Assembly: GCA_964473745.1 (NCBI GenBank)
Contig: CAYYQE010000008.1
Span: 73-64,072 of the forward strand
DNA: 64,000 nt
Reading direction: 5' to 3'
Source of the DNA: an uncultured Candidatus Peribacteria bacterium
Lineage (GTDB): Bacteria > Patescibacteriota > Gracilibacteria > UBA1369 > UBA12473
Below are positions 33,573-52,016 of this stretch, piece after piece (position 1 is the stretch's first letter; every line of letters begins with the position of its first letter). A model generated the notes under the pieces. That model saw only the letters and a program-made list of their open reading frames with translations. It had not been told where the DNA came from and did not search any database. Position numbers and translations under genes: made by a program.

Positions 33573-34463
33573 CTAAAACTGCACATTTTGGCGTTTCAAT
33601 TTTGAGCGGCCCAATTCTGATTCCTTTAGGTGATAATCCGCCAACACAATCCCCAGCTGCTCCGCCGTCGTTCGAGCCATTTTACGAGGACCCGGCATCC
33701 ATTCCTCTACTCCATCCATCACAATCGCCCCCCAAAATTCTCCATAAAGATCACGAATCGCAGCAATCATTCGACCATCATTTACCAAATGCCGACGATC
33801 TTTCCCAAGCAACTCTTCTATCCCCAATAATTCCTGCGTCGAAAGCTGATAATCACCCCAAGTCACTTTTACTTCTAAATGCCCAGTAACCTGATTTTTA
33901 AGGGCAATTGCCCCTTTTGGTGCCTGCGTAGCCAAAGCTAATTTACTACTTATTCGCGTTAACATTTTATCAATATCGCCTTTGAAATCATGCATCATTT
34001 TTGAAACATCATACATGGCCACTAATTCTTGATTAGCCCACTGCAAACGTTGGTTTACCACCTTAAAAAGAGCTAATAAAAGAGCACTCGCTTCATCAGG
34101 TTTTTCCACCAAAAACTTCTCAAAATCTGCTTTTTTAAGCACCAAAACTTCAACATCATCAATCGCCACAGCCGAAGCATTCCGCGGTTTTGCTGAAAGC
34201 AACGAACCTTCACCAAAAATCGCTCCCGGATCCAAAATAGCCAATACTTTTTTCTGATCATCACGAATTCTTTTGGCAATTTCAATATGCCCACTCAATA
34301 AAAGATACAGCTCTGAACTTGTTTCTGCTTCTTCAAAAATCAATTCCTTTTTTTCAAAATGCTTCTTTTCCCAAATTCCTTTTCCAGAAATAATTCTTTC
34401 TTGCTCTTCTGGAGCAAGGGCGGAAAAAAAATCTTCAATCTGTGAATGAAAACTCTTAGCCAT
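33573..34463 (-). CDS. Cyclic-nucleotide-binding domain protein with C-terminal GAF-like region
   Basis: A cNMP-binding beta-barrel pattern is present (ELYLLLSGHIEIAKRI...LDPGAIFGEGSLL...RNASAVA). The likely start is MAKSFHS at 34463, overlapping the pilT stop by 8 nt. Confidence 0.7.
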   Translation of the reverse strand: MAKSFHSQIEDFFSALAPEEQERIISGKGIWEKKHFEKKELIFEEAETSSELYLLLSGHIEIAKRIRDDQKKVLAILDPGAIFGEGSLLSAKPRNASAVAIDDVEVLVLKKADFEKFLVEKPDEASALLLALFKVVNQRLQWANQELVAMYDVSKMMHDFKGDIDKMLTRISSKLALATQAPKGAIALKNQVTGHLEVKVTWGDYQLSTQELLGIEELLGKDRRHLVNDGRMIAAIRDLYGEFWGAIVMDGVEEWMPGPRKMARTTAEQLGIVLADYHLKESELGRSKLKRQNVQF

Positions 34464-35520
34464 TAGAAATTTTTTGTTTAAAGGCTTCGATATCATGGGC
34501 TTTGGCCATCGCTGCCTCGGGAGTTACTGTACCATTTGCCACTAAATCAGCCAAGGAATCATCCAAAGTTTGCATCCCCTCACTTTTACCAATTTGAAGC
34601 ATAGAATAAATCTGGTGCGTTTGTCCTTCTTTCACACAATTACGCATCGCATCGTTCATTACCAATATTTCAAAAGCAGCGGCCCGACCTTTTCCATCAG
34701 CACGCGGCACCAAAGTCTGCGAAATCACTCCAAGTAATCCTACTGAAAGCTGAGCTCTAATCTGTTCTTGTTGATAAGCCGGAAAAACATCAATCATTCG
34801 ATCTACAGTTTGAGCCGCATCCGTAGTATGCAAAGTTGAAAGCACTAAATGCCCGGTTTCTGCCAAAGTAATGGCCGCAGCAATTGTCTCTAAATCACGC
34901 ATTTCTCCTACCAAAACCACGTCTGGATCCTGCCGCAAAGCCGACCGAATGGCCGTACTAAACGAGTCAGTATGCGAATTAACTTCACGTTGCGTAATTA
35001 AAGCGTTTTTTGAGGTATGAATAAACTCAATCGGATCTTCCACTGTAATAATATGACATTTGCGATTCGTATTCGCGTAATCAATCATCGACGCCAAAGT
35101 TGTGGACTTTCCACTCCCGGTTGGACCAGTAACCAAAATTAATCCCCGCGGCTTCATGGCAAATTCCCCAAAAATCGGGGGCAACCCCATTGACTCCAAC
35201 GAAGGCGGGCTACTGGGAATCGACCGGAAAGCAAGGGCAGTCCCCTCCTTCTCCTGATACAAATTAACTCTAAATCGACCCACATTCGGCGATCCATAAG
35301 AAAAATCTACTTCCTTGTGTTCCTGAAAAATAAGAAACTTCTTCTCTCCCGCTACTTTTTGCGCTATGGCTAGAATTTCTTCTTCTGTTAAAGCCGGCAT
35401 TTTATCTGTTGAAAAAAGCTCACCATTTGACTGACGAATAACCGGTGGACTCCCCACTTTTAGATGGAGATCCGGAGCATGACTCTCTACCACTTGTTTT
35501 AAGATCAAATCAATATCCAT
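34456..35520 (-). CDS. pilT: Type IV pilus retraction ATPase PilT
   Basis: A Walker A motif (GPTGSGKST), the GEMRD motif and the GHLVLSTLHT His box are present. Confidence 0.9.
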   Translation of the reverse strand: MDIDLILKQVVESHAPDLHLKVGSPPVIRQSNGELFSTDKMPALTEEEILAIAQKVAGEKKFLIFQEHKEVDFSYGSPNVGRFRVNLYQEKEGTALAFRSIPSSPPSLESMGLPPIFGEFAMKPRGLILVTGPTGSGKSTTLASMIDYANTNRKCHIITVEDPIEFIHTSKNALITQREVNSHTDSFSTAIRSALRQDPDVVLVGEMRDLETIAAAITLAETGHLVLSTLHTTDAAQTVDRMIDVFPAYQQEQIRAQLSVGLLGVISQTLVPRADGKGRAAAFEILVMNDAMRNCVKEGQTHQIYSMLQIGKSEGMQTLDDSLADLVANGTVTPEAAMAKAHDIEAFKQKISNG

Positions 35521-35647: not shown

Positions 35648-35754
35648 AATCAGCCTTGGCTTCTACCTAGAAACCATCTCCCCCCGTGGAGAATGAGTGT
35701 CTGGCTGCCGCCAAGACGCTTGTTCTTTCACATTCTCATGCCCGGAGCATACCC

Positions 35755-36381
35755 ATGTCCCGTTCCCTCCTCATCACCCTCGGCCTCGCCCTTGGCCTCG
35801 CCCTTGGCCTCGTCGGTATCGCCTGGTTCAGCGTCTACAAATCGAACCGCCTCAACGAGCGCAACGATCTGCGCGCCGAGGTCGCCGAGTACCTGGTCGA
35901 AACCGAGAAGGAAGCCGTCGACAACGCGATGAAGATCTCCCTCGGTGCCCTCAACAACTTCCAAAAGGGTGAATTCTACCACCGCAAGTCGAAAGTCGGC
36001 GCCAAGACCGTCGGCCTCTTCTCCCACGACCTCGAGCCTGCTCTGACCTTCCTGGTCGACCTCGAGCGCGCCGTCCACGCAACCACCTTCTTCTTCAACT
36101 ACTCGAGCACCGAGCAGCAGGCCCTGTTCGACTGCAACGGCGGGTTCAACGGCTTCGCCGTCCCCGCCGCCCTGCAGCACAACCTGGGCCACATTCGGAG
36201 CTTCAAGTGGCAAGTCTCGGACCTCGAGCTCACCACCGAAGCCATCACCACCGCCCAGGCCGAGTGGGCCACGCTCAAGGAGACCATGGACGTCAGCCTG
36301 CAGACCGCCTCGGCCCTGGCCCTCGATGACAACCCCTGGCGCTGCGTGTGGCCGGACGAGGTGGACGAGGAGCAGCTCTGA
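35755..36381 (+). CDS. Hypothetical signal-anchored protein encoded in GC-rich island 1
   Basis: A GGAG sits 7 nt upstream of the ATG at 35755. The 208-aa product starts MSRSLLITLGLALGLALGLVGIAWF (TM helix), and third codon positions are very G/C-rich. The ORF is open back to a GTG at 35686. I see no recognisable domain. Confidence 0.6.
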   Translation: MSRSLLITLGLALGLALGLVGIAWFSVYKSNRLNERNDLRAEVAEYLVETEKEAVDNAMKISLGALNNFQKGEFYHRKSKVGAKTVGLFSHDLEPALTFLVDLERAVHATTFFFNYSSTEQQALFDCNGGFNGFAVPAALQHNLGHIRSFKWQVSDLELTTEAITTAQAEWATLKETMDVSLQTASALALDDNPWRCVWPDEVDEEQL

Positions 36382-36455
36382 TGGATCCCCGAACCCTCAT
36401 CCTCCTCCTGGGCCTCACCGCCGCCGCCCTCTACGACTACTGGCTGATCATCTAG
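36381..36455 (+). CDS. 24-aa hydrophobic micropeptide, translationally coupled
   Basis: The TGATG stop/start overlap at 36379..36383 links it to the upstream ORF. My translation is MDPRTLILLLGLTAAALYDYWLII, with a TAG at 36453..36455, and codon bias matches the upstream ORF. Confidence 0.4.
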   Translation: MDPRTLILLLGLTAAALYDYWLII

Positions 36456-36488
36456 GCCTGCGGAACTGTGAAACGACCGAGCGTACAT

Positions 36489-36512
36489 GCCTCCCTCATC
36501 CCCGAGGGAGGC
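36489..36512 (+). terminator. GC-rich hairpin closing island 1
   Basis: GCCTCCCTC-atcccc-GAGGGAGGC forms a 9-bp perfect stem. The downstream T-tract is weak (CTTCGCTTATAAAAATTT). Confidence 0.55.
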
Positions 36513-36575: not shown

Positions 36576-37220
36576 ATGAACCAACGACAACAAGTAATTT
36601 TAGAAATTCAACAAGCCGCGCTCCAAATAATTCAAGAGCGCTATGAGGACTTCCCATATCACAACGCTACCCACACCGGTTTTGTGATCGAAACTGCCAA
36701 TCTCTTGGCCCAAGACGCCAAACTTCCACAAGATCAACTCGAACTACTTACTTTAATGGCTGCGGCCCACGATTTAGTCCAAACCCACGATCCTCTTGCT
36801 GACGGGTATCTTGGCGAAAACGAAAATGAATCCGCTGACTGGCTCGCTGAACAAATGCTTGCCTCAGGCCAATTCGAAGACGACGAAATCGAACAAGCTC
36901 GTCGCGGCATAGAAGCCACCTTCATCCTCCATCGCGAAGACGGTATCAAACAATCCGCTGAATTTGGTGATTTTTTAAGTGAACTTCTTTGTGACGCTGA
37001 TCTTGCCAACCTCGGCAGTCCCTGGGACGTCTATTTCCCCAAAACCAAAGACTATTTCCAAGAAATCAACCCCAACTCAACCGAAGAAGAATGGAAGCAC
37101 TATTTACGTCTTCAAGTCCCAATCCTCCTCCAACACCACTACTACACCACCGTCGCCCAAGAACGATTCCCTCATTTACGTGAAAATGCCACAAAAATAG
37201 AAGACTCCTTAAAAGCCTAA
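36576..37220 (+). CDS. HD-domain phosphohydrolase-like protein
   Basis: A 214-aa ORF with H...HD spacing (YHNATHTGFV ... AAAHDLVQTHD). Confidence 0.55.
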   Translation: MNQRQQVILEIQQAALQIIQERYEDFPYHNATHTGFVIETANLLAQDAKLPQDQLELLTLMAAAHDLVQTHDPLADGYLGENENESADWLAEQMLASGQFEDDEIEQARRGIEATFILHREDGIKQSAEFGDFLSELLCDADLANLGSPWDVYFPKTKDYFQEINPNSTEEEWKHYLRLQVPILLQHHYYTTVAQERFPHLRENATKIEDSLKA

Positions 37221-38149
37221 TCCAGCTCCAAAACCTCTGGCAACCAATTACAATAATTGCCTTCTTTTTTTAATTCTTCCCTAATTTTGCGCATTTCTTT
37301 GCGCCACATCCCTTCAGAATAATTTTCATTCAAAATCATAAACTTCCCGTGATTCACTCCTACACACCCAAACATATGATGCGAATTAAAAACCCGCACA
37401 CAAAATTCCGCATCACGCGTATTCCCACACTGCCAACAAAAATTACAGTTATACAAATCATATCCCATCACACATTCATACAACAACTCGCCAGTCATAC
37501 ATTCGGTATCATAAATATCCTTACTTTTATCCACAATATGATAAGAATTTGCCGCGTCCTCGACATCATTCATGGAATAACAATTCAAACAATTCTTGGA
37601 ATTATAAATATGATCTCCGGTGCAATTTTCGGAATGAAGCTGAACCGACGCAATATGGGGAATTTTTTCACGCAGTGCTCCCACTTTTTCCAAAACTTCT
37701 TGCTGTTTTGCCGGAGTATCGGCCCGAAGCTCAGCTATTTTTTGCAAATACTCTTCTTTGGAATAAGGGGCATTAAAAATATGAAAACTTTTTTGCCTAA
37801 GCCCCACACACCCAAAACAATCATTACAACTTTTGCAATCATAACAAAACTGCAAATCGCGTGACCCCACACATTCCTCGCAAAAATCACAGTTATAACA
37901 CCGCTCACAAAACTCACATTCATAACAAAGTTCACACTTCATGCAGTGATACGTATCGCAACAATCTTTAAGCGTATTTGGATAGTAACAATAATAAGAA
38001 TCCTCACATTTATACCCAACAAAACACATGTAGGAATCCTTGGAAAAAGACAAACAATGCACGTAATCGCAGTTCTTGTTTGTTACCGAACGCAACGCAT
38101 ATGTTGGCTGGGATTCCAGTAGTTTTTTGAATTTTTCCAAAAAGCTCAT
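37217..38149 (-). CDS. Cysteine-ladder repeat protein, paralog A (uncharacterised)
   Basis: A 310-aa protein with about 32 Cys. It contains a CxxC ladder (CMKCELCYECEFCERCYNCDFCEEC) and an internal duplication whose halves end in CNDCFGCVGLRQKSFHIFNAPYSKEEY and HHMFGCVGVNHGKFMILNENYSEGMW. Confidence 0.7.
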   Translation of the reverse strand: MSFLEKFKKLLESQPTYALRSVTNKNCDYVHCLSFSKDSYMCFVGYKCEDSYYCYYPNTLKDCCDTYHCMKCELCYECEFCERCYNCDFCEECVGSRDLQFCYDCKSCNDCFGCVGLRQKSFHIFNAPYSKEEYLQKIAELRADTPAKQQEVLEKVGALREKIPHIASVQLHSENCTGDHIYNSKNCLNCYSMNDVEDAANSYHIVDKSKDIYDTECMTGELLYECVMGYDLYNCNFCWQCGNTRDAEFCVRVFNSHHMFGCVGVNHGKFMILNENYSEGMWRKEMRKIREELKKEGNYCNWLPEVLELD

Positions 38150-38164
38150 GAGCAGATTATAACA

Positions 38165-38446
38165 CTACCCCAGATGCTTCCAAAAACATTCCTGACAATA
38201 AACAATATATTTAGATTCCGGAGAATAAGTCGAAATAATATCGTTTTGGCACTTATCACATTTTCGTTTATATAATTTACGCTCATTCCGAAGAGAAAGT
38301 CGCCTTTTTTGACGACAATCCGGACAATTTTCTGGAAACGGCAGGTCTTTTTTCTTATAAAACTTCTGTTCCTGCTCAATTATCAAAAAATCCTTTGAGC
38401 AAGCCTTACATTTTGCAACCTTATTTTCAGTAGTAGTTTCTGTCAT
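38165..38446 (-). CDS. Stand-alone double zinc-ribbon protein
   Basis: A 93-aa protein with four CxxC pairs (CKAC...CPDC...CDKC...CQEC). It is homologous to both termini of the 533-aa fusion protein. Confidence 0.7.
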   Translation of the reverse strand: MTETTTENKVAKCKACSKDFLIIEQEQKFYKKKDLPFPENCPDCRQKRRLSLRNERKLYKRKCDKCQNDIISTYSPESKYIVYCQECFWKHLG

Positions 38447-38466
38447 GATTAGAAGGGTTAAATTAT

Positions 38467-39411
38467 TTAAGAAAGTTCAGGGACAGCCAATTCTGGATAG
38501 GTCGTTGGCAAATGTTTACCATATTCACCACTAGCTCTCATCTCAGCCTTAATCTCTGCTACTTTGCGGTGCCAATCCTCCTTGGAATACTGCTTATTAA
38601 AGATGCAATATTCTGCTCGATTCATCGTAAAACACCCAAACATATGATGCGAATTGTAAACATTTTCACAATACTCCAAATCATAAGAATCGAAAACCCC
38701 GTAACAATAGTTACAATTCGTAATATTCATGGCTGACATGATTTCGTAATTAAGCTCCGACTTATAATAATTATTTGAACAATCTAGAGAATCGGTAATT
38801 TCCTCACAATTATTCAAATAAGAACAATCCTGAAGTTTCTTAACATCAAAACAGTAATAACAATTCTTACAATTATAAATATAATCACCAAAAGATTTCT
38901 CGTTTTGATCGCCTCGAAGCATTAATCGCGGCATCTTCTTTTTAAGCTCCTTCACCTGCTGATCAATCTCTTCTCGCGATATTTGCTTTAATTCAGCTAA
39001 TTTAGATTCATACTCCTTCTTTGTGAATTTCTCATTAAAAATGTGATATTCCTTGCGCCGCAAACCCACACATCCAAAACAATCATTACACCCAACCATG
39101 TCAAAACAGTGCCGTAAACTTCGTGAACTTTTACAATCCTGACACCCTTCACATTCATAACATTCATGACAGTCTACACAGTCGTAACAAAGTCGACAAT
39201 AAAAGCAATAATCACAATCCGTGCAGTCCTCAGAGTTATATAAAAAGTATCCATAATAACAATCTTCGTCATATTCACTCCCCACTAACAAATAACAATT
39301 TTTAGTGTTCCCACTGTAATTTACAAATTCGCTGTTTTCGCAATTTACATAGAGTAAACCGACTCGCGGATGCTTATTTCTAAGCTCAATCATTTGATGA
39401 ATGTAGGACAT
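38467..39411 (-). CDS. Cysteine-ladder repeat protein, paralog B (uncharacterised)
   Basis: A 314-aa protein with the same architecture and signatures as paralog A (CNDCFGCVGLRRKEYHIFNEKFTKKEY; HHMFGCFTMNRAEYCIFNKQYSKEDW). Confidence 0.7.
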   Translation of the reverse strand: MSYIHQMIELRNKHPRVGLLYVNCENSEFVNYSGNTKNCYLLVGSEYDEDCYYGYFLYNSEDCTDCDYCFYCRLCYDCVDCHECYECEGCQDCKSSRSLRHCFDMVGCNDCFGCVGLRRKEYHIFNEKFTKKEYESKLAELKQISREEIDQQVKELKKKMPRLMLRGDQNEKSFGDYIYNCKNCYYCFDVKKLQDCSYLNNCEEITDSLDCSNNYYKSELNYEIMSAMNITNCNYCYGVFDSYDLEYCENVYNSHHMFGCFTMNRAEYCIFNKQYSKEDWHRKVAEIKAEMRASGEYGKHLPTTYPELAVPELS

Positions 39412-39514
39412 AATGTTGACAAATTAAATGACGATTGCATAGTAACACCTACCCACCAAATGTCAAGCGCTGACGACGCAATCCCGCCGTCGAAAAACTT
39501 TCGACAATCCCTTT

Positions 39515-41521
39515 CTAAAGCAGTATCATTTCCTTTAAATCAAAGGCATTAATCGGGTTAAATTCATCGGCATGTTCGCTGGCATATTTAACTGTGGCCT
39601 CATAAAGAGCCCAGTGACTATCTTGCATGTTTTGTGATCGGAAATCCGGTGTCTCTTCATGTACCCCAACTTCAAAAGGCGGCTCTTTTGTCACTTGCTT
39701 ACTATCATCCTCCCAATACACCGGCCAAAAAGGCGTACCTTGCAAATAAAAATTATTCTCGTGATATTTCATATTAATAAACTGCGGACCATTCTCCGCC
39801 TCCACCATCTGTTCTACGGCTCTAATAAACACATCCTCCCCTCCGGTCTGTGAACGCACCCATTCATACAATTTGACCTCAGAATGTTCGGGACGAACAT
39901 AAGATCCATAACGCTCATCTCCTAAATCTGGGTCGTTTCGACTTACAACAAACTGCCCTCCCTTATCCTTATAAACCTTGGCCAAAACCTCTCCAATTTC
40001 ACCCCCAACAGAAACCCCAGTAATTAACGGCGCATAACCAATCGCATCTTTTACAAACTGGTATCCGCCAGGTTCATCCAAAGTAAGCCCTGTTTCTAAA
40101 TCTAACCGATACTCCTCGTATTCGGTAAGAATCTTTTCCAATTCAACTTTATCCATTTCATTTAATCCTACTAAATCTTCAAACCCACTATAATAAGGAG
40201 TTGCTGGCCGCACATGATACGAAATTGCCACCATTTCCGAACTACTTAGTCGCTCCACCAACTCCGGATAATCCGCCACATAATTCTGAAAAGACGGACC
40301 TGTCACATAAATATCCACCGGCACCTGATACTGCTCGTGAATATCAATCACCTTATTAATTGCTTCCGCACTATTCTCAGGATACACCCAATCATGCACA
40401 TTTAAGGTAAAAAGGGTGTAAACATCCTTCAAATCATCATTTTGGACCGCGACCACATCCAACGCTACGGATTCTAAATAAACCTGAACTACATCCCACT
40501 GACTAGCCCATTGCAAAACTCCGTCATCTTGTAATTTTTGCGTTTCGGAAAAAAAGTAGCGAAGGGCATCTTCATTTTCCTCTTCAAAAATACTAACTGG
40601 CAAATAAACATTTAATTTCGCCACACGCGTTTTATCTCTAACAGACTCCATCTCCAAAACCTGCTCCAGGAATGCATCAACATCCTCACGCGTAAGTTCT
40701 GCCTCATCATCAAAACCGCCATCATCGGCCTGACTGGCCAAAGTCCCCATATCACCACTACTTATCACAATTATCCCATCCTCATCATGTTCAAAATCAT
40801 TTAAATCCTTGAGTTTCATTAAATAAATACGATCTTCTAAATTTTCGGGAGCTGGGTCATGAAAATGATCCAAAATATATTCGTCGGTCCAGGTTGGGTC
40901 TGGTCTATTTTCTTGCGGAATCGGAAGCAAAGCTCGCGCCACAATCCCATCTATATATTTAAATCCCGCAATTTCCGCTGCCGTTACCCAATCATTCATG
41001 CCATTTCCTCCTGAACAACCATGATTATTTTCTTCGCCGATCAGATCATCAACCAAAGCCTTATTAACCGCAAAAGCCTTTGAAAACTCCATCGGATTCA
41101 ACTCATTATCCGTATACTTCGGCCCCAAATCACAGTGAGTCCCCACCCCATGTCCACGATCCATGATTTCTTTCATCATATTGTGATCCCAAAGCGTATT
41201 CGCCCTGGCAAACGGCTGCTCAGATTCAATCGTCAAAATCGCGTCATACTCATCCGCCATATCCATTCCATATCGAAGTTCTTCCACATGCCTCCAAAAC
41301 ATATTCTCATTCTCATCATCATTATGACCAATTTCCATGTGAGTCATAGTGGTCATGTAAAGAGGATATTCTTGAACCGTTTCTTCTGGTAAATCTAGCG
41401 GCAGAACCTCATCAATAACCTGTTCAGGGACCTCTTCATCTAAATTATTCCAATAAAAAAGACCGCCAATCCCAAAAATTAAAACAAAAAAAAGCACCGA
41501 AAGGATAATATTACGTCTCAT
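39515..41521 (-). CDS. Signal-anchored extracytoplasmic protein, unknown function
   Basis: A 668-aa protein with an N-terminal TM helix (IILSVLFFVLIFGIGGLFYW). It has two roughly similar halves with His/Asp-rich motifs (HMEIGHNDD, GTHCD; NVHDWV, SYHVRP), possibly a metal-dependent carbohydrate esterase-like fold. This is a weak call. Confidence 0.5.
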   Translation of the reverse strand: MRRNIILSVLFFVLIFGIGGLFYWNNLDEEVPEQVIDEVLPLDLPEETVQEYPLYMTTMTHMEIGHNDDENENMFWRHVEELRYGMDMADEYDAILTIESEQPFARANTLWDHNMMKEIMDRGHGVGTHCDLGPKYTDNELNPMEFSKAFAVNKALVDDLIGEENNHGCSGGNGMNDWVTAAEIAGFKYIDGIVARALLPIPQENRPDPTWTDEYILDHFHDPAPENLEDRIYLMKLKDLNDFEHDEDGIIVISSGDMGTLASQADDGGFDDEAELTREDVDAFLEQVLEMESVRDKTRVAKLNVYLPVSIFEEENEDALRYFFSETQKLQDDGVLQWASQWDVVQVYLESVALDVVAVQNDDLKDVYTLFTLNVHDWVYPENSAEAINKVIDIHEQYQVPVDIYVTGPSFQNYVADYPELVERLSSSEMVAISYHVRPATPYYSGFEDLVGLNEMDKVELEKILTEYEEYRLDLETGLTLDEPGGYQFVKDAIGYAPLITGVSVGGEIGEVLAKVYKDKGGQFVVSRNDPDLGDERYGSYVRPEHSEVKLYEWVRSQTGGEDVFIRAVEQMVEAENGPQFINMKYHENNFYLQGTPFWPVYWEDDSKQVTKEPPFEVGVHEETPDFRSQNMQDSHWALYEATVKYASEHADEFNPINAFDLKEMILL

Positions 41522-41584
41522 ATTTGGAGGGTTAGTTTTCTTGATTATCTTACCACAAAAGCTGTTTTACCCTACAATGACCCC

Positions 41585-43186
41585 ATGAATACCTGCACCC
41601 AATGTCAAAATACGTTCGAAATTTCTGAAAAAAATCAGACTTTTTACGAACAAATCGCAGTCCCGCCACCAAAAAAATGCCCGGACTGTCGTTTAGTACG
41701 CCGTTTTATCGAACGCAATCCCAAAACTCTATACTATAGACTTTGCGATTTCACCAAAAACAATACTCTTTCTCAATTTCACGCTGATCAACCTTTTCCA
41801 GTTTACAGTCCAGAATCTTGGTGGAGCGAGAATTGGGACATCTTAAAATATGGTCAGGATTTTGACTTTGATCGCCCTTTTTTCGAACAATTTTTGGAAC
41901 TCAAAAACCGAACTCCACACCTCGCGCTCTTTAACACTGGTGGCACTATCCAAAACAGTGATTTCAACAACTGCACCGCTTATTTAAAAGACTGCTACTT
42001 AATTGCGGAAAGCGACTACTGTGAAGCCTGTTATTACTCAAATTTATTAAAAAATTGCCAATCCGTCGTGGACTGCTCAGTCTGCTACAAAGACGAACTT
42101 TGCTACGAATGTATCGACTGCACTAATTGTTATGCCTTACTCTATTCCCAAGACTGCCAAACCTGTAAAGATAGCTATTTTCTCCAAAACTGTACCTCCT
42201 GCTCTGATTGTATTGGCTGTATCAACCAACGCCAGCAGCAGTACCTAATTTTCAATAAAAAATACTCAAAAGAAGAATACGAAAAATTTAAAAACCAATT
42301 TGCTCTAAACACAAAAGAAGGAGTCGCTAAACTTGCACAAACCTGCACGGAATTCTTTTTAACCCAACCGAGAAAAAACCTCATCGCCGAACATAATGAA
42401 GGAAGCTCCGGAGATCATCTTTTCAACTCCAAAAACGCGCACCACTGTTTTGACAGCATTGATTTAGAAGATTGCTCCTACTGCGCCAAACTAACTCTGG
42501 GCGTCAAAACCTCTATGGATTACAATTCCTGGGGAAACAAATGCGAACTCATGTATCAGTGCACTTCCTGCGGGGATCACTGCTATAACTTAAAATTCTG
42601 CGCCAACTGCCAAAGTGACATGAATAATTGTGAATACTGCGTCGAATGTTTTGGCTGCTCCGACTGCTTTGGCTGCGCTAATCTAAAAAAAGAAAGCTTT
42701 TGCATCTTTAATAAAAAATACTCCGAAAAAGACTATCACGAGCTAAAAAATCGCATCATTGCCCATATGAAAAAAACGGGTGAATATGGCGAATTTTTTC
42801 CAATCGAAATTTGTCCGTACGGGTACAACGAAACCATGGCCATGGACGCTTTTCCCCTCACCAAAGAACAAGCTCTTGAACAAGGATTCAAATGGTATGA
42901 CCCCCCTGAACCAAAATCATCCAGCAATACGAACGCCGCCCTTTGCGATTGCGGCAAAAACTTTAAAATCATCAACCAAGAAGTAGTTTTTTACAAAAAA
43001 CTAAACATCCCCACTCCTGATAAATGCCCCCTCTGCCGTCACAAAACCCGCATAGCCAAACGTAGGCCACTTAAATTATGGGACCGTAAGTGCACCAAAT
43101 GCAACGCCGCCATTAAATCTAATTACGCCCCCGAACGTCCCGAAATAATCTACTGCGAAAAATGTTATTTAAAGGAGGTCTATTAA
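41585..43186 (+). CDS. Fusion protein: zinc-ribbon + duplicated cysteine-ladder domain + double zinc-ribbon (paralog C)
   Basis: A 533-aa protein. The N-terminus (CTQCQNTFEISEKNQTFYEQ...CPDCRLVRR) and C-terminus (CDCGKNFKIINQEVVFYKK...CPLCRHKTR...CTKC...YCEKCY) both match the 93-aa protein. The middle matches paralogs A and B. Confidence 0.75.
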   Translation: MNTCTQCQNTFEISEKNQTFYEQIAVPPPKKCPDCRLVRRFIERNPKTLYYRLCDFTKNNTLSQFHADQPFPVYSPESWWSENWDILKYGQDFDFDRPFFEQFLELKNRTPHLALFNTGGTIQNSDFNNCTAYLKDCYLIAESDYCEACYYSNLLKNCQSVVDCSVCYKDELCYECIDCTNCYALLYSQDCQTCKDSYFLQNCTSCSDCIGCINQRQQQYLIFNKKYSKEEYEKFKNQFALNTKEGVAKLAQTCTEFFLTQPRKNLIAEHNEGSSGDHLFNSKNAHHCFDSIDLEDCSYCAKLTLGVKTSMDYNSWGNKCELMYQCTSCGDHCYNLKFCANCQSDMNNCEYCVECFGCSDCFGCANLKKESFCIFNKKYSEKDYHELKNRIIAHMKKTGEYGEFFPIEICPYGYNETMAMDAFPLTKEQALEQGFKWYDPPEPKSSSNTNAALCDCGKNFKIINQEVVFYKKLNIPTPDKCPLCRHKTRIAKRRPLKLWDRKCTKCNAAIKSNYAPERPEIIYCEKCYLKEVY

Positions 43187-47489: not shown

Positions 47490-50400
47490 CTAAACAAGTT
47501 CCTCAACCGCCAACAACAATTTATCTTTAAGTTCAGGGTGTTTTCTAAGAATTTTCAAAATTCTTACTTCTATCTGGCGAATACGTTCCCTGCTTAATCC
47601 CCATCTACCCCCAATTTCGACAAGTGTTAAAACACTCTGTTTATCATTAAATCCAAACCGATTAACAAACACATCCCAAAATCTTTCTATATCTTTTGCT
47701 CCCACCTCATCCTCAATAATAACTCTTATTTCTTCAAGCAACATGCTCCGTTGCTCTCTTTGTTCAACTTCAACAAAACCATCATCAACCTCGCCCATTA
47801 AATCACCCCGACGGTTAGCATTTGCATCTTCGTCATTCATTGGAGCATCTAACTGGACCTCTCCACTAGCAGCGATACTAGCAAGATCTATAAGATCTTT
47901 TACTTCTTCAATTGGCATATCCAACATTTCCGCAAGATCTTCTGGGGTTGCCTGTCGATGGTTAGTCCTCAAAAACATACCTCGTGCTCTGTTTAATTTC
48001 TTAATATCTTGTTGAAGATGAATTGGAATTCGAACTGCACGATGGTGATTTTCGATATATCTAATTATAAATTGTCGAATCCACTGATTAGCATAAGTTG
48101 AAAGTCTAATCCCCCGATGAGGGTCAAACTTTTGAACCGCCCTTATAAGTCCCATATTTCCTTCTTGAATAAGATCAGGGAAAGGTAAATTAGTCCAGGT
48201 ATATTTCTTAGCAATCCAAACAACAAGACGCAAATTTCTGGTTATTAATTCATTGAGAGCCTCTTGATCACCAGCTTCCTTTCTGACACCTAACTCGTGC
48301 TCTTCTTCTCTAGTTAAAATGCTCGTAGCAGGCCCTAATTGAATAACACTTTGTTCACCCAAAATTAAACCCTGTGGCTCGCGCCGAGGCTTCACCTTTG
48401 GCTTTGGCTCAGGCTCCTCAACTTCAGCTAATAAATTTGTTGCTTTTTCATATAATTGGAAAGCATATTTATCAGTCAAAAAATCAGCTATCTCGGGTAG
48501 CAAAAGTCTACGATTAGGCAAAACCTCTGCTTCGACTATTAAAGACTGTAACTCTCCTCCAAGTAATTTTTCCTTAACTACCTCTAACACCCTTTCACTA
48601 ATAATTTGACTATAAGAAATACGGGCAATGACATGCAACACTCTTAATAAAACCTGGATAAGCATATCTCGTTGCCTAGGTCTTACTGATCTTTCTTCTA
48701 AAATTGCGTTAAATTCAGCTACATAAGTCTGAATTTGCTGCAAAGAAAACAAACTATAACGAACAACCAATTGTGGATTCGCTTCAGCCTCTTTTCTTAA
48801 TTGTCCGTCACCAGTTAAAAACTCAAACTTTTTCCACATTGTCGCTTCTGTCGTACGATGAGCAACCCATCCCTCAACGTGATCCCAACGCATCCCAAAA
48901 GCATCTCGCAATTTCTGACCCGCATGCTGATTAGCTAACTTTTGTTCTATCCGCCGAGGTGCATATTGACGGCAATGCCTAGCAGGCTTATCTAAATAAT
49001 CTTCGTAATCTCGAGGTTCAGGATAAGTCTTACCACAAGTGTCCGCCTCTAATTCAATAGCACTTAAAAAGAAAGCATTCTCACGCAATTCTGCTAAATT
49101 AACGGCACTTCTAGTTAGTTTTTCAGTCCACAAAGACGAACAACCCAGATTACTTAAAAACGCTCTCTTTAACCTCTGCGCTGGAGTTAAATTAGTAGGA
49201 TCTAAAAGTTCTTCTATGTCATCTATCTCTTCCAATTTTCCATAAAGCATTCCCGAAGTAACTTCCACCTGCCCCGCCTCCAAATAAGCAATTCTTTTTA
49301 AAACTCCCCTTGCTCGGGCGCGTGACCCACAACAAGCTTCCATATCAGCATATCCTAATCGATGAAATCTTAAACTCTCCCTAACTTGCCTCTTTAAATC
49401 ACACGAAGTATACAAAAACTTTAAGACTTCTTTAAGCTGCCTATTAACACTTCCTCGCCCCAGAGTCCCAGCTGATTCTAAAACAGTAGTTATTCTTTGT
49501 TGCTGAGCAGATGTTGCTTCCTCTAAAAGCGCCACATGTGCAACTCCTCGATAAGCAGTAGACCCTAACTGTTCATTTAACCGGACCGCTAAATTTTGAC
49601 CACTCAACCAAAACTCTTCCTCTGGCGTTAATTCGCGACGTTTTTGCTGCCGCCCTAAACGAGCCGCTAATTCTTCCCGAATTTTAATCGGCAAACTAAA
49701 AGCATTCATTAAATTAAATTGCACTGATGTAACACCATAACCTAACAATCGAAATACTCGACAATAATCAGCTAAAACATCTGGCTCACGATTTTCTAAA
49801 GACTCTGGCACAATTCCTGTTTCAAAACCAAACACCTCCCCCAATTCAACTAATCTCTTTTCTTGTGTTAATTTTCTCCAAGCCCTTTCCACGCCTCGAT
49901 CTCTTTGCTTTTGAGAAGCGTTAATCCAAGCCCATTGCCCTTCAAAAGAAACACCACGCGCTTCAATTTCCTGAATAATTTCTAAAGTTCGAGCTGTTCT
50001 ATATATATAGCCTGGCGGATCCTTCAACCCACGCTCTTCTGAAAACCTAGTAAACGCTGCTTCGTCCTCCGCCCTAACCTCTTCGGCCTTAACCTCCGCA
50101 GCCGATGGGCCAGGTGTCATTTTTGTTCTAATAACTTCCAAACTACTATCTAAAAGAGCCGGTTGTATTTTCCCAAAATGCTCTAACATAAACTCCGCTT
50201 TAGCAAGAACTGTAGAAGGACGAAGCCTTCTAATAGCCCTCTGTAAAGACCCAATTGGACAACCCAACTCTGCCAATCTCTCTCTGGCGGCTTGTTCTGC
50301 TGGAGCTATTGAAGCACTAAAACGAGGCATCTCCACAGGCAATGAAGGTGTTGGCGTTAGATCAGGTTCATTTTCAGCTAACACTTCTAACTGAGTTTGA

Positions 50401-52016
50401 ATTCGCTGATGACTCTTTCCTTTTATTTTTAGTGCTCGCGCCGCCCGTCGCAGATCTTTCCAACTATTTACATGCAAAAAATGAACGTAAAGTTCCCGTG
50501 GAGCACCTTCCTTTTCAAAAATAACAATTCTTTCTTCAATTCTTTTTACACTCGTTTGATTTGCCGCAAACAGTATTTGTCGCATATAAGTTGGTATATC
50601 TTCATTTTTAGCAAAAAACGCTACCTTATTCCGTAAACGCTGGAAAGACGCACTATCAGGGCCTCCCACAAAATGTGTCTGCTTCGGAGCAATAGTAATT
50701 CCATCTCGCAAAGTATGCTGAAGAGTTTCTCTTAAATATCTAGCTGAAAAAGCTTTACCAGGAGGGAAAGGATGCCCCAAAGCATTCTGTTCCACATAGG
50801 CTACTAATTCCGGTCGAGGCATATCATCAAAGTCCTCCGGAACTGCTGCTAATCTAAATATCGGCGGTGCCTTTTCCATATGCTCAATTGTTTTGCGCCT
50901 CACAAAAACTCGCCTCAAATTTGCACGAATGTGTTTTTTTGAATGATCTGTAATCTTTTCTAGCCGCTCTCTTGTTATCCAAATATCATAAATCTGTATT
51001 CCATATTCACTAAAATATTCTGTTTCTAAAAGCAAATGCTGCCAAACAAACACATAAGTATATCTCCCAGCAGAATCTTCAACTGGAATCGGAGTTGTAG
51101 TTCGTTGAATAGCATTATATAAATCTGCCTCTATTATCTGACGAACTCCATTTAAAACCGCTTCCCAATCATCCCCCTCACAATCAACCTCCTCGCTAGT
51201 CGGCACCCGCTTCAATTCCAAAGATTTCTGCAAAGCCTGGTGGACAACTTCTTCAGAAGGGGCCACACATTCCCCCTCCCGATCAGTGTGCGTTAAAACA
51301 GTACTTTTGATAACAATTTCTACCGCTCTCCCAAGCCCACCAAAAGCTCTTACAAATCTTCCATTATGATAACGGCATTCACTTTGCTGCGGGAGTGAGG
51401 TCCCAGTTTGATAAGTCCGATTATCAGCTGGAAGATCATTTTTTTCATTATAAGCTCGCCATAATTCCTCGGCTAGAGCTTTTCGCAAGGGCTCCTCTTC
51501 TGTCTCAGCAACTATAAATCTAAATCTCATTTGATGAACAACTTCATGATAACTATGTCCAATTCCTTCTAATAAATGTCTCAATTGTGCCGCTTCACGT
51601 CGAGCCCCATACTCTGGATGTTCGGCCAAAAAATCATCCAAAGTCCCAGGATGAAACACCGTACGGCCTTCTGCTTGCCGCGCTTCCCAATGACGACACT
51701 GAAAATGATATAACGCTAACAAAAATTGCAATTGGGCTTTAATCGCTTCAGCATACCTTTCCATTGCGATCGCTTCCTGTTCCTGCACTGGCTCAGGTGA
51801 AACCAAAGCCGCTTCCTTTATTTCATGAAGAGGTCCATCCCAAGCTCCTAAAATCATCTCCAAACTATCTGGCGTAGCATCAACTGCTAATTGATCTCGC
51901 GTAGCCAACATTACTGAAGGCAACGGGCTAGAAGCATCCACTATTTCAGAAGCAGCAGCTTTCTCTATAATTGTTTGCGCCGGAAAAACCCAAGAAGCCT
52001 CAAGACGATCATTCAT
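47490..52016 (-). CDS. Giant sigma-70 family protein: roughly 1233-aa unknown N-terminal extension + RpoD-like regions 1.2-4
   Basis: The C-terminal 275 aa (nt 47490..48317) carry LTREEEHELG...NLRLVVWIAKKY (1.2/2.1), DLIQEGNMGLIRAVQKFDPHRGIRLSTYANQWIRQ (2.2-2.4), region 3, and LSRERIRQIEVRILKILR (4.2). The preceding 1233 aa have no motif I recognise. Confidence 0.85.
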   Translation of the reverse strand: MNDRLEASWVFPAQTIIEKAAASEIVDASSPLPSVMLATRDQLAVDATPDSLEMILGAWDGPLHEIKEAALVSPEPVQEQEAIAMERYAEAIKAQLQFLLALYHFQCRHWEARQAEGRTVFHPGTLDDFLAEHPEYGARREAAQLRHLLEGIGHSYHEVVHQMRFRFIVAETEEEPLRKALAEELWRAYNEKNDLPADNRTYQTGTSLPQQSECRYHNGRFVRAFGGLGRAVEIVIKSTVLTHTDREGECVAPSEEVVHQALQKSLELKRVPTSEEVDCEGDDWEAVLNGVRQIIEADLYNAIQRTTTPIPVEDSAGRYTYVFVWQHLLLETEYFSEYGIQIYDIWITRERLEKITDHSKKHIRANLRRVFVRRKTIEHMEKAPPIFRLAAVPEDFDDMPRPELVAYVEQNALGHPFPPGKAFSARYLRETLQHTLRDGITIAPKQTHFVGGPDSASFQRLRNKVAFFAKNEDIPTYMRQILFAANQTSVKRIEERIVIFEKEGAPRELYVHFLHVNSWKDLRRAARALKIKGKSHQRIQTQLEVLAENEPDLTPTPSLPVEMPRFSASIAPAEQAARERLAELGCPIGSLQRAIRRLRPSTVLAKAEFMLEHFGKIQPALLDSSLEVIRTKMTPGPSAAEVKAEEVRAEDEAAFTRFSEERGLKDPPGYIYRTARTLEIIQEIEARGVSFEGQWAWINASQKQRDRGVERAWRKLTQEKRLVELGEVFGFETGIVPESLENREPDVLADYCRVFRLLGYGVTSVQFNLMNAFSLPIKIREELAARLGRQQKRRELTPEEEFWLSGQNLAVRLNEQLGSTAYRGVAHVALLEEATSAQQQRITTVLESAGTLGRGSVNRQLKEVLKFLYTSCDLKRQVRESLRFHRLGYADMEACCGSRARARGVLKRIAYLEAGQVEVTSGMLYGKLEEIDDIEELLDPTNLTPAQRLKRAFLSNLGCSSLWTEKLTRSAVNLAELRENAFFLSAIELEADTCGKTYPEPRDYEDYLDKPARHCRQYAPRRIEQKLANQHAGQKLRDAFGMRWDHVEGWVAHRTTEATMWKKFEFLTGDGQLRKEAEANPQLVVRYSLFSLQQIQTYVAEFNAILEERSVRPRQRDMLIQVLLRVLHVIARISYSQIISERVLEVVKEKLLGGELQSLIVEAEVLPNRRLLLPEIADFLTDKYAFQLYEKATNLLAEVEEPEPKPKVKPRREPQGLILGEQSVIQLGPATSILTREEEHELGVRKEAGDQEALNELITRNLRLVVWIAKKYTWTNLPFPDLIQEGNMGLIRAVQKFDPHRGIRLSTYANQWIRQFIIRYIENHHRAVRIPIHLQQDIKKLNRARGMFLRTNHRQATPEDLAEMLDMPIEEVKDLIDLASIAASGEVQLDAPMNDEDANANRRGDLMGEVDDGFVEVEQREQRSMLLEEIRVIIEDEVGAKDIERFWDVFVNRFGFNDKQSVLTLVEIGGRWGLSRERIRQIEVRILKILRKHPELKDKLLLAVEELV

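What the first reader, a model, noticed from the sequence alone, without database searches (positions are those of the whole stretch)
38165..43186. Rosetta-stone fusion links the free zinc-ribbon protein to the cysteine-ladder domain
The 93-aa protein (38165..38446) reads KCKACSKDFLIIEQEQKFYKKKDLPFPENCPDCRQKRRLSLRNERKLYKRKCDKCQNDIISTYSPESKYIVYCQECF. Nearly the same module appears twice in the 533-aa protein. At its N-terminus it reads CTQCQNTFEISEKNQTFYEQIAVPPPKKCPDCRLVRRFIERNPKTLYYRLC...YSPESWW. At its C-terminus it reads CDCGKNFKIINQEVVFYKKLNIPTPDKCPLCRHKTRIAKRRPLKLWDRKCTKCNAAIKSNYAPERPEIIYCEKCY. These two copies flank a central duplicated ladder domain. The same two modules are therefore encoded once as separate adjacent genes (ladder B, zinc ribbon, ladder A) and once as a single polypeptide. 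That is classical evidence for physical or functional interaction. The basic CPxCRxxRR segment could contact nucleic acid.
Basis: seen in the sequence. Interest (0 to 1): 0.7.

Follow-up and report, generated by a model that had tools for sequence, protein, structure and literature searches.

The report
Split-versus-fused zinc-finger ladder protein family
A small zinc-finger protein and a cysteine-rich repeat protein, encoded side by side here and joined into one chain a few kilobases away, belong to a large uncharacterised protein family of ultra-small (Peregrinibacteria/Gracilibacteria) bacteria, and almost certainly work as one unit whose job is still unknown.

Summary
The 93-aa protein (Z) matches the 533-aa protein (F) twice: 44% identity (E=1e-22) at the C-terminus and 39% (E=5e-17) at the N-terminus. 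Both matches stay significant with every cysteine masked. Ladder proteins A and B match the centre of F, which is an internal duplication.

Z is Pfam zf_Tbcl plus zf_Tbcl_2, giving two zinc sites. The ladder (L) has no Pfam or NCBIfam model and no significant structural neighbour. It is predicted to be all-beta and partly solenoid-like.

In 74 related genome loci:
- 35 of 38 assessable free Z genes sit directly after a B-type L gene, the same order as L–Z in the fusion.
- Z-L-Z fusions form tandem arrays of up to 11 genes.
- L is acidic and Z is basic across the family.

Ladder cysteines are replaced one at a time by Ser, Val or Ile. Z's zinc-site cysteines are lost as blocks. The ladder is therefore mostly a packing motif, not a chain of metal sites.

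Family genes are often adjacent to a TraD/VirD4-like ATPase and a TrmB regulator, though not in this window. Physical interaction and function remain inferred.

The parts
38467..39411 (-). Ladder B (L module, 314 aa, 29 Cys, pI 5.1, net charge -15). This is the conserved partner encoded directly upstream of Z.
   Evidence: ORF. 36% identity to F 98-406, E=3e-56. No Pfam or NCBIfam family. Orthologs upstream of Z in 29 of 33 related loci. AF2 mean pLDDT 72.7, all-beta with a 12-residue coil pattern. Charge.
38165..38446 (-). Free zinc-finger protein Z (93 aa, 8 Cys giving two 4-Cys sites, pI 9.1, net charge +8).
   Evidence: PF13451 zf_Tbcl residues 9-49, 35.5 bits against a cut-off of 24. PF23477 zf_Tbcl_2 residues 56-91, 23.7 bits against a cut-off of 27, full-length match. 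Matches F twice. 20 nt after the B stop codon.
37217..38149 (-). Ladder A (L module, 310 aa, 32 Cys, pI 5.2, net charge -14). Second, more divergent L paralog, 15 nt downstream of Z.
   Evidence: ORF. 36% identity to B and 32% to F. An L gene directly downstream of a free Z occurs at 12 of 44 free Z genes; 10 of these also have an upstream L, the L-Z-L order seen in this window. Downstream L genes are not a single orthologous group.
41585..41869 (+). F residues 1-95: N-terminal Z copy. Zinc site 1 is intact (C4, C7, C32, C35); site 2 is reduced to C54.
   Evidence: 39% identity to Z, E=5e-17. zf_Tbcl match at residues 3-39. AF2 pLDDT about 90. The same degeneration is seen in 106 N-terminal copies.
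41870..42814 (+). F residues 96-410: duplicated ladder (L) module, 35 Cys, net charge -11.
   Evidence: (Ladder HMM E=1e-162). AF2 pLDDT is 50-60 for the first half and above 90 for the second half.
42815..42940 (+). F residues 411-452: linker conserved in the fusions (...YNET.AMD.FPLTKE.A...G..W...). It is absent from the split B and Z proteins.
   Evidence: Invariant N415, W437 and nearly invariant E416, P424, G434 in 46 fusion homologs. B and A end about 12 residues after the GEYG motif.
42941..43186 (+). F residues 453-533 plus the stop codon: C-terminal Z copy with both zinc sites (first knuckle C-x-C), net charge +11.
   Evidence: 44% identity to Z, E=1e-22. Cys map and charge.
39439..39466 (-). 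Promoter-like site (TTGACA, 16 nt, TG-TACTAT) in the 103-nt gap upstream of ladder B. It is a possible start of a B-Z-A transcript and is tentative.
   Evidence: Consensus scan only. The number of such sites in the region is not above shuffled expectation.

Best explanation
B (or A) and Z are the two modules of one lineage-specific protein system, present here in a split form (operon B-Z-A) and a fused form (F = Z-L-Z). Z is the true zinc-binding part. It is a bipartite treble-clef-type finger with two 4-Cys sites and a conserved basic helix. L is an acidic, internally duplicated, all-beta and partly solenoid-like scaffold. Its 'cysteine ladder' (x-C-x-x-C-x register) mainly fills core-packing positions rather than forming a chain of metal sites. 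Possible exceptions are the well-conserved C..C..CFGC caps at the end of each half. Inferred step: free Z docks on the C-terminal end of B in trans, giving the same arrangement that is covalent in the fusions, helped by charge complementarity. Further inferred step, from gene neighbourhood in relatives: the Z·L particle works with a soluble TraD/VirD4-like hexameric ATPase, as its adaptor or client, and is controlled by a divergently transcribed TrmB-type regulator. My probabilities are about 0.7 that Z and L form one complex or functional unit, about 0.65 that ladder cysteines are mostly structural, and about 0.35 for the ATPase-coupled role.
For: Homology of the modules is shown. Z belongs to PF13451 and matches PF23477. 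The fused family is very large: 4422 hits at E<=1e-5, all from Peregrinibacteria, Gracilibacteria or Patescibacteria and all 'hypothetical'. An exhaustive search found 3855 representatives of 50%-identity clusters, with architectures L, Z-L, L-Z and Z-L-Z. L->Z adjacency is conserved in 35 of 38 assessable cases, with B-type orthology of the upstream L and colinearity with the C-terminal copy. Charge complementarity is family-wide: L has a median net charge of -10 and is negative in 99% of 189 domains; free Z has a median of +8 and is positive in all 53. The AF2 model of the fusion has pTM 0.78, and its highest confidence (pLDDT 93-98) lies at the N-Z/L junction. Ladder Cys columns are 40-73% Cys, are replaced by Ser, then Val/Ile/Leu/Thr, and never by His or Asp. 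Their presence is only weakly correlated (r<=0.52). In the positive control, Z site-1 and site-2 cysteines are lost as blocks (r=0.87-0.98). A TraD/VirD4-like ATPase occurs in 32 of 77 loci. In 24 of them it lies within 150 nt on the same strand, in several different arrangements and in both code-11 and code-25 lineages. A TrmB gene lies within about 200 nt of a family gene in about 24 loci.
Against: There is no direct evidence of a Z-L contact. No multimer prediction was available and model coordinates could not be inspected. The split system lacks the conserved linker and the N-terminal copy of the fusions, so its geometry may differ. Neither the ATPase nor TrmB lies in this 64-kb window or near the closest relatives L004-L005. 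Some Z-L-Z genes stand alone (L078). Conserved neighbourhood could partly reflect inherited synteny. AF2 confidence for the ladder is only moderate (pLDDT 50-60 for the first half in F; 72.7 overall for B). In the Cys-dense proteins of this window, metal binding by the ladder is not excluded.
Confidence: 0.6

Rival explanations
1. Nucleic-acid reading. Z is a DNA- or RNA-binding zinc finger that uses the basic helix after the CPxC knuckle. The acidic beta-solenoid L is a nucleic-acid mimic or regulator that competes for that surface. The system would act in DNA handling or gene regulation, together with the DNA-translocase-like ATPase and the TrmB regulator.
For: Z is strongly basic and carries invariant Arg/Asn in the helix (R45, R49, N54, R56, R61). 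L is acidic in 99% of cases. The best weak structural hit for B is the DNA mimic QnrB1 (E=0.03). The neighbouring ATPase is nearest to DNA-coupling proteins TrwB/TraD and CedD.
Against: No significant match to any DNA- or RNA-binding family was found. The Qnr hit has TM below 0.15 and is not significant. The only detectable relative of Z site 2 in the PDB is the LIM half-finger, a protein-protein module (E=0.003). The conserved Arg residues persist in F's N-terminal copy, whose net charge is about -1, which fits a protein contact as well.
Confidence: 0.25
2. Metal-ladder reading. The C-x-x-C run (four Cys per 12-residue coil) binds a stack of Zn or Fe ions, or small Fe-S centres. L would then be a metal store, a redox buffer or an electron conduit.
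For: L is 9-11% Cys in a protein with no signal peptide. There are 11 consecutive Cys at period 3 in B. AF2 predicts 12-residue coils in this stretch. The C..C..CFGC cap cysteines are 87-94% conserved.
Against: Across 189 domains most ladder Cys columns are only 40-73% Cys. They are replaced singly by Ser, Val, Ile or Leu, and never by His or Asp. There is no block co-loss (r<=0.52, and adjacent CxxC pairs r<=0.42). Genuine zinc sites in Z show block co-loss at r=0.87-0.98. Some family members have only 11 Cys in the domain. No ferredoxin-type CxxCxxCxxxCP motif is seen in the three translations.
Confidence: 0.15
3. No specific Z-L interaction. The family simply shuffles two mobile domains among paralogs, and adjacency reflects local duplication and fission, not a complex.
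For: All combinations exist (L, Z, Z-L, L-Z, Z-L-Z, and rare Z-Z-L-Z). Family genes cluster through tandem duplication, so adjacency could arise by descent.
Against: Adjacency is directional and specific: a B-type L lies upstream on the same strand with gaps of tens of nt in 35 of 38 cases, across species whose Z proteins are only 55-89% identical. Apart from three loci, Z of this subfamily is not seen without L nearby. The opposite charges are conserved.
Confidence: 0.15
4. Chance resemblance caused by shared CxxC spacing and cysteine-rich composition.
For: All the proteins are Cys-rich, and short CxxC matches to the ladder also appear as noise in the BLAST output.
Against: The matches stay at E=2e-14 and 1.5e-8 after masking all Cys. 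Cys-fixed shuffles reach at most 25 bits against 77 and 62 observed. The same Pfam family hits both Z and F. Z and L profiles are unrelated by hhalign.
Confidence: 0.01

Closest known systems
Pfam PF13451 (zf_Tbcl, 'probable treble clef domain') with PF23477 (zf_Tbcl_2) / TIGR04272 (CxxC-x17-CxxC domain)
   Same: Z and both ends of F match these models. They share CxxC...CPxC followed by a helix, then CxxC-x17-CxxC. Phage 'zinc-ribbon domain' proteins superpose locally on the model at 0.6-1.3 Å over about 40 residues.
   Different: These Pfam families have no assigned function. Here the two fingers form one fixed 80-aa module that is tied to the ladder domain, either in cis or as the next gene. 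The PF23477 and TIGR04272 scores fall below the curated cut-offs for Z.
LIM-domain zinc fingers (CRP1/CRP2)
   Same: Z site 2 aligns with the second half-finger of LIM domains (C-x2-C-x17-C-x2-C; 1ctl E=0.003). From established knowledge, LIM domains are protein-protein adaptors.
   Different: The match is marginal and covers only about 30 residues. Z lacks the His/Asp ligands and the tandem-finger spacing of LIM.
Beta-solenoid repeat proteins: left-handed hexapeptide beta-helix (gamma-carbonic anhydrase, LpxA/LpxD, PglD) and pentapeptide-repeat proteins (QnrB1)
   Same: The ladder has a hexapeptide register (x-C-x-x-C-x). AF2 predicts short strands every 12-13 residues. Nearly all of the top weak Foldseek hits are beta-helix proteins.
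   Different: No hit is significant (best E=0.03-0.07, TM<0.2). The repeat residues sit 3 apart and are Cys or Ser, not the [LIV]-G-x-x-[STAV]-x or A(D/N)LxX patterns. No acyltransferase or carbonic-anhydrase residues are evident. Each half ends in a distinctive CFGCxG...Y.IFN..Y..EEY cap plus a helix.
Cys-rich narrow beta-helices and CXXC-rich proteins (Tenebrio antifreeze protein with a 12-residue coil; Giardia VSPs). Recalled from memory, not tested.
   Same: A 12-residue coil period with regularly spaced Cys, high Cys content, and large paralogous families (VSPs).
   Different: Those proteins are secreted or membrane-bound and disulfide-bonded. The proteins here have no signal peptide or transmembrane segment. 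No sequence or structure match was obtained.
Rosetta-stone (domain-fusion) protein pairs
   Same: Two separately encoded proteins are homologous to adjacent parts of one polypeptide, in the same order, in the same genome.
   Different: Here the fused and split forms are paralogs within one expanded family, rather than two unrelated enzymes of a pathway. The fusion also has extra parts (the N-terminal copy and the linker).
Type IV coupling proteins (TrwB/TraD/VirD4) and their clients. This concerns the neighbour gene in relatives, not this window.
   Same: The ~750-aa neighbour carries a P-loop and weak DUF87, T4SS-DNA_transf and TrwB_AAD_bind matches. NCBI names it 'type IV secretion system DNA-binding domain-containing protein'. 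From memory, known coupling proteins recognise clients through basic or dedicated C-terminal domains.
   Different: All scores are far below the curated cut-offs. No other T4SS gene was seen beside the ATPase-L-Z unit. No translocation signal has been shown in Z or L.

Membership tests
PF13451 zf_Tbcl | Score at or above the Pfam gathering threshold (24 bits), with the CxxC ... C(P)xC pattern | tested here: met
   Z scores 35.5 bits (E=9.9e-9) over residues 9-49. F scores 21.1 bits (below the cut-off) with two stretches. Homologs P0050 and P0015 score 35 and 32 bits.
PF23477 zf_Tbcl_2 / TIGR04272 CxxC-x17-CxxC | Score at or above the curated cut-off (27 / 36 bits) and the CxxC-x17-CxxC pattern | tested here: inconclusive
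   Z scores 23.7 bits against 27 (Pfam) and 21.3 against 36 (TIGR), but the model is covered end to end (1-36 of 37) and the pattern C63-x2-C66-x17-C84-x2-C87 is present. Homologs P0015 and P0053 score 27.5 and 26.7 bits.
Left-handed beta-helix hexapeptide-repeat proteins (Hexapep) | Pfam Hexapep match, the [LIV]-[GAED]-x2-[STAV]-x repeat, and a significant structural match to an LbH fold | tested here: not met
   No Pfam hit for A, B or the ladder of F. Foldseek best E=0.07 with TM<0.2. The repeat is x-C-x-x-C-x.
Pentapeptide-repeat proteins (Qnr/MfpA) | Pfam Pentapeptide match, the A(D/N)LxX repeat, and a quadrilateral beta-helix | tested here: not met
   No Pfam hit. QnrB1 is the top Foldseek hit for B but is not significant (E=0.03, TM 0.09-0.12).
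Rosetta-stone pair (split versus fused homologs) | Each separate protein is significantly homologous to a distinct, non-overlapping part of one fused protein | tested here: met
   Z matches F 4-80 and 445-532. A and B match F 98-406. Z and L profiles are unrelated to each other.
Rosetta-stone pair (split versus fused homologs) | Independent support for linkage: conserved operonic adjacency and colinearity of the split genes | tested here: met
   L is immediately upstream of Z in 35 of 38 assessable loci. Free Z is closer to the C-terminal copy in 51 of 53 cases. The upstream L is B-type in 29 of 33 cases.
Rosetta-stone pair (split versus fused homologs) | Physical interaction of the separate products | not testable with these tools
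   No multimer prediction was available, and no coordinates or PAE were returned for the fusion model.
Multi-site metal-binding (zinc or Fe-S) ladder | Ligand cysteines conserved and lost in sets of about four, with His or Asp as alternative ligands | tested here: not met
   Ladder Cys columns are 40-73% conserved, replaced by Ser/Val/Ile/Leu, with r<=0.52. The positive control, the Z sites, gives r=0.87-0.98. Direct metal content is not testable here.
Anti-phage defence systems (PADLOC) / phage proteins (PHROGs, IMG/VR, INPHARED) | Significant match to a defence or phage family, or presence on viral contigs | tested here: not met
   PADLOC gave no hit with E below 0.03. There is only a weak match of the Cys run to phrog_15341, a family of unknown function (E=5e-10 to 3e-7). 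No tblastn hit in 50,697 phage records. No relative in IMG/VR.

The most novel reading that the evidence does not exclude
The Z/L family would be a dedicated client or effector repertoire of a type-IV-coupling-protein-like ATPase in Gracilibacteria and Peregrinibacteria. In this reading the tandem arrays of up to 11 or more Z-L-Z paralogs encode exported or host-directed proteins, and the basic zinc finger (in cis, or supplied in trans by free Z) is the recruitment module. A second possibility, alone or in addition, is that the Cys-dense ladders of proteins like those in this window are a previously undescribed metal-filled beta-solenoid.
Probability: 0.15. Interest if true: 0.8.

Novelty: new variant of a known kind. 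Interest (0 to 1): 0.5.

Why it matters
Peregrinibacteria and Gracilibacteria are uncultivated, reduced-genome, probably host-dependent bacteria, and most of their lineage-specific proteins are unannotated.

This family stands out for three reasons:
- It is very large: at least 3,855 clusters at 50% identity.
- It occupies whole tandem arrays in genomes of only about 1 Mb (genome size from general knowledge).
- It repeatedly sits beside a TraD/VirD4-like ATPase and a TrmB regulator.

The split and fused pair in this window gives a concrete experiment: does Z bind ladder B, and where? It also gives a small, expressible two-protein version of a system that is otherwise a 550-aa Cys-rich chain.

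The ladder domain has no Pfam or NCBIfam model and no structural neighbour, so defining it would annotate thousands of 'hypothetical proteins'. The block-loss versus single-loss comparison of cysteines offers a simple sequence-only way to tell metal ligands from packing cysteines.

Tried and rejected
- **Structure searches.** Foldseek of the fusion model against the PDB and BFVD, and of ladder B against the PDB, gave nothing significant. The weak hits were almost all beta-helix proteins, plus local ~40-residue zinc-ribbon matches.
- **PDB sequence searches.** F alone gave only a marginal LIM hit. The Z profile gave the LIM half-finger at E=0.003.
- **Family libraries.** NCBIfam, PADLOC and PHROGs gave no family for the ladder beyond a weak match of the Cys run to phrog_15341.
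- **Viral searches.** tblastn against phage records and a scan of IMG/VR found nothing.
- **Is the ladder cap a degenerate Z finger?** hhalign of the Z and L profiles showed no relation.
- **Literature.** Searches for PF13451, zf-trcl, treble clef with Patescibacteria, cysteine-rich with CPR or Gracilibacteria, and VirD4 with Peregrinibacteria found no description of the family.
- **Window neighbours as partners.** The 668-aa membrane protein, the HD-like 214-aa protein, and the 128-aa and 231-aa ORFs are syntenic only in the closest relatives L004-L007 (the 214-aa protein alone has a weak 33% match in L007; the others are confined to L004-L006), so I rejected them as components.
- **ATPase and TrmB in the window.** tblastn found neither in the 64 kb.
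- **RNA genes.** Rfam and tRNA scans of the window found none.
- **Covariation (DCA).** I did not attempt it between Z and L because only about 350 fusion sequences were held locally, too few for 550 columns.


Full report
**1. Observation**

- ladder A, 37217-38149(-), 310 aa
- Z, 38165-38446(-), 93 aa
- ladder B, 38467-39411(-), 314 aa
- fusion F, 41585-43186(+), 533 aa

B, Z and A are separated by only 20 and 15 nt. A 668-aa membrane-anchored protein lies between B and the divergently oriented F.

Z aligns to F twice: residues 445-532 at 44% identity (E=1e-22) and residues 4-80 at 39% identity (E=5e-17). It is not met. With every Cys masked, the matches stay at E=2e-14 and 1.5e-8. In 200 shuffles of Z that keep the Cys in place, the best score is 25 bits, against 77 and 62 observed.

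A and B match F 98-406 at E=2e-43 and 3e-56. They are 36% identical to each other. The two halves of the ladder are homologous (E=5e-13).

Two details need correcting. The N-terminal copy in F has lost three of the four cysteines of the second zinc site. The C-terminal copy begins with C-x-C rather than C-x-x-C.

**2. The modules**

Z is Pfam zf_Tbcl (PF13451, above threshold) followed by zf_Tbcl_2 (PF23477) / TIGR04272, which is covered end to end but scores just below the cut-offs. That gives two 4-Cys sites joined by a conserved basic helix. Z has pI 9.1 and net charge +8. Its second site resembles a LIM half-finger at marginal significance (E=0.003).

The ladder has no Pfam, NCBIfam or PADLOC family. 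It is acidic, with pI about 5.1-5.2 and net charge -14 or -15.

AlphaFold2 gave the following:
- With 46 homologs, the F model has pLDDT 78.8 and pTM 0.78. Its most confident stretch is the junction between the N-terminal Z copy and the ladder.
- With 49 homologs, the ladder B model has pLDDT 72.7.
- Both models are all-beta. Each half consists of long hairpins, then a run of short strands with a 12-13-residue period, then a CFGCxG...Y.IFN..Y..EEY cap and a helix.

Foldseek found no significant neighbour in the PDB or BFVD. Nearly all the top weak PDB hits are beta-helices or beta-solenoids, including gamma-carbonic anhydrase, LpxA/LpxD, QnrB1 and tailspikes. The BFVD hits are instead mostly local matches of about 40 residues to phage zinc-ribbon and zinc-finger proteins. 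Z and L profiles are unrelated to each other.

**3. Family and distribution**

- F has 4422 database hits at E<=1e-5. The 120 best listed are about 390-600 aa (nearly all 510-600 aa), and every source name given for them is 'hypothetical protein' or 'zinc-ribbon domain containing protein' from Peregrinibacteria, Peribacteria, Gracilibacteria or other Patescibacteria.
- Ladder B has 393 hits, mostly free proteins of about 310-330 aa.
- Z has 65 hits, mostly free proteins of about 88-110 aa.
- An exhaustive profile search with the ladder found 3855 representatives of 50%-identity clusters (1519 at E<=1e-30). Protein lengths and match positions imply the architectures L, Z-L, L-Z and Z-L-Z.
- The four window proteins are themselves in public databases as hypothetical proteins of marine Candidatus Peregrinibacteria, on a contig of about 64.4 kb.
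- I found no paper describing the family.

**4. Split versus fused survey**

I fetched 74 loci around Z relatives from GTDB species genomes. I then scored six-frame ORFs with my own Z and Ladder HMMs, using code 11 or code 25 as appropriate.

Results:
- Of 44 free Z genes, 35 have an L gene immediately upstream on the same strand. Six of the nine exceptions lie at contig ends.
- The upstream L is a B-type ortholog in 29 of 33 cases, with median identity of 51% to B and 35% to A. Downstream and other L genes are diverse paralogs.
- Ten free Z genes, counting the window's own, have an L gene on both sides, repeating the L-Z-L order seen here.
- Free Z scores higher on a profile of C-terminal copies than on one of N-terminal copies in 51 of 53 cases. 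The gene order L->Z therefore mirrors L-Z in the fusion.
- Z-L-Z genes dominate in code-25 Gracilibacteria. They form tandem arrays of up to 11 genes per 16 kb (L056, L069, L070, L052). Code-11 relatives have arrays of 6-8 (L040, L063, L079).
- L is negative in 99% of 189 domains (median -10). Free Z is positive in all 53 cases (median +8).

Together these results support the Rosetta-stone inference that Z and a B-type L act as one unit. They do not prove contact. The fusions also carry a conserved linker and an N-terminal copy that the split pair lacks.

**5. What the cysteines do**

Across 189 ladder domains only five columns are at least 80% Cys. These are three columns of the C..C..CFGC motif in the first-half cap plus two columns in the second half. 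The other roughly 21 ladder columns are 40-73% Cys. They are replaced by Ser first, then Val, Ile, Leu or Thr, and never by His or Asp. Their presence is only weakly correlated (maximum r=0.52, with no blocks of four).

Z serves as a positive control. Its site-1 cysteines co-vary at r=0.87-0.93 and its site-2 cysteines at r=0.95-0.98. The two sites are anticorrelated: N-terminal copies keep site 1, and many C-terminal copies keep only site 2.

I conclude that Z holds the real zinc sites and that the ladder cysteines are mostly small core-packing residues of a narrow beta-repeat. One structural site per cap is possible. For the unusually Cys-dense proteins of this window (29-35 Cys per ladder), metal binding cannot be excluded without chemistry.

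**6. Genomic partners in relatives**

Clustering all non-family ORFs of the loci gave two recurrent neighbours.

The first is a soluble P-loop ATPase of about 750 aa.
- It has weak DUF87/HerA, T4SS-DNA_transf and TrwB_AAD_bind matches, and TrwB is its best PDB relative.
- NCBI names it 'type IV secretion system DNA-binding domain-containing protein'.
- It occurs in 32 loci, and in 24 of them it lies on the same strand within 150 nt of a family gene.
- The arrangements differ: ATPase->L->Z, L->Z->ATPase, or embedded in Z-L-Z arrays. It is found in both genetic-code lineages.

The second is a TrmB-family wHTH protein of about 255 aa (PF01978, E=4e-10). It is usually divergent and within about 200 nt of an L or Z-L-Z gene, in about 24 loci, sometimes twice per array.

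Neither gene is in this window. The window's own flanking genes are syntenic only in the closest relatives. Linkage that survives several rearrangements suggests a functional connection with the coupling-protein-like ATPase and local transcriptional control. This is inference from neighbourhood only.

**7. Explanation and rivals**

My best-supported view has three parts.
- *Shown:* Z and L are distinct homologous modules that exist split and fused. Z carries the zinc sites. L is an acidic duplicated beta-repeat.
- *Inferred, about 0.7:* free Z docks on B-type L in trans, as the C-terminal copy does in cis.
- *Inferred, about 0.35:* the unit serves the TraD/VirD4-like ATPase as an adaptor or client, under TrmB control.

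The rivals are:
- a nucleic-acid-binding finger with a DNA-mimic solenoid (0.25)
- a metal-filled ladder (0.15)
- domain shuffling without a complex (0.15)
- chance similarity (refuted)

**8. Novelty and score**

The Z domains are catalogued in Pfam but have no assigned function. The ladder domain is not catalogued, and I found no literature on it. The Rosetta-stone logic is classical.

I file the finding as a new variant of known kinds (treble-clef zinc finger plus beta-solenoid-like repeat) in an uncharacterised, greatly expanded CPR-specific family. I score interest at 0.5. It is a solid, testable lead for CPR biology, but no function has been established.

Noticed in passing
L049 and L056 (both from contig JAGXIW010000003.1), L052, L069, L070, L079: Z-L-Z genes form very large same-strand tandem arrays, with 8-11 family genes per 16 kb and at least 17 within about 38 kb of one contig. 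These genomes read UGA as a sense codon: with code 11 the genes fragment, and with code 25 they are full-length.
   Followed up: partly
L008-L034, L048, L051, L054, L066, L075 (not in the window): A soluble TraD/VirD4/HerA-like P-loop ATPase of about 750 aa is operonically linked to L->Z or embedded in Z-L-Z arrays. A divergent TrmB-family regulator of about 255 aa flanks many arrays, sometimes twice per array.
   Followed up: partly
Z-module alignment across 262 copies: In the fusions the two Z copies have degenerated in complementary ways. N-terminal copies keep zinc site 1 only. Many C-terminal copies keep site 2 only. The first Cys of each lost site is still retained in about 95% of copies, which is unexplained.
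   Followed up: partly
window 35800-36500: A GC-rich island (0.58-0.66, against 0.36-0.45 nearby) coincides with a 231-aa ORF (35686-36381, +) that has a hydrophobic LGLALGLALGL segment, and with long overlapping ORFs in other frames. The protein is 50% identical to one in relative L006.
   Followed up: partly
window 47490-52016 (-): A 1508-aa protein carries its sigma-70 regions 2, 3 and 4 only in the last roughly 250 residues. It is therefore a primary-type sigma factor with an N-terminal extension of about 1250 aa and unknown function. A similar 1436-aa protein is seen near Z in a JGI contig.
   Followed up: no
window 39515-41521 (-): A 668-aa protein with an N-terminal membrane anchor and only a faint polysaccharide-deacetylase match sits between ladder B and F. 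It is conserved (about 80% identity) only in the closest relatives L004 and L005, where it also precedes the B-type ladder gene.
   Followed up: partly
window 33573-35520 (-): A cyclic-nucleotide-binding-domain protein (307 aa) overlaps the 3' end of a PilT/T2SSE-type ATPase gene by 41 nt, which suggests a coupled pair.
   Followed up: no
window 1-64000: There is no tRNA gene and no Rfam family at gathering threshold anywhere in the 64 kb.
   Followed up: yes
L012, L046, L074: Contigs carrying typical L->Z or Z-L-Z genes are labelled Saccharibacteria, Bdellovibrionales and Rikenellaceae in their MAG records. L074 needs code 25. These labels are probably binning errors rather than true occurrences outside Gracilibacteria and Peregrinibacteria.
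   Followed up: no
window 37217-38149, 38467-39411, 41960-42250 (ladder Cys runs): The Cys run of the ladder gives a weak match to phrog_15341, a phage family of unknown function (E=5e-10 to 3e-7). No phage record or IMG/VR contig encodes a detectable relative of the family.
   Followed up: yes
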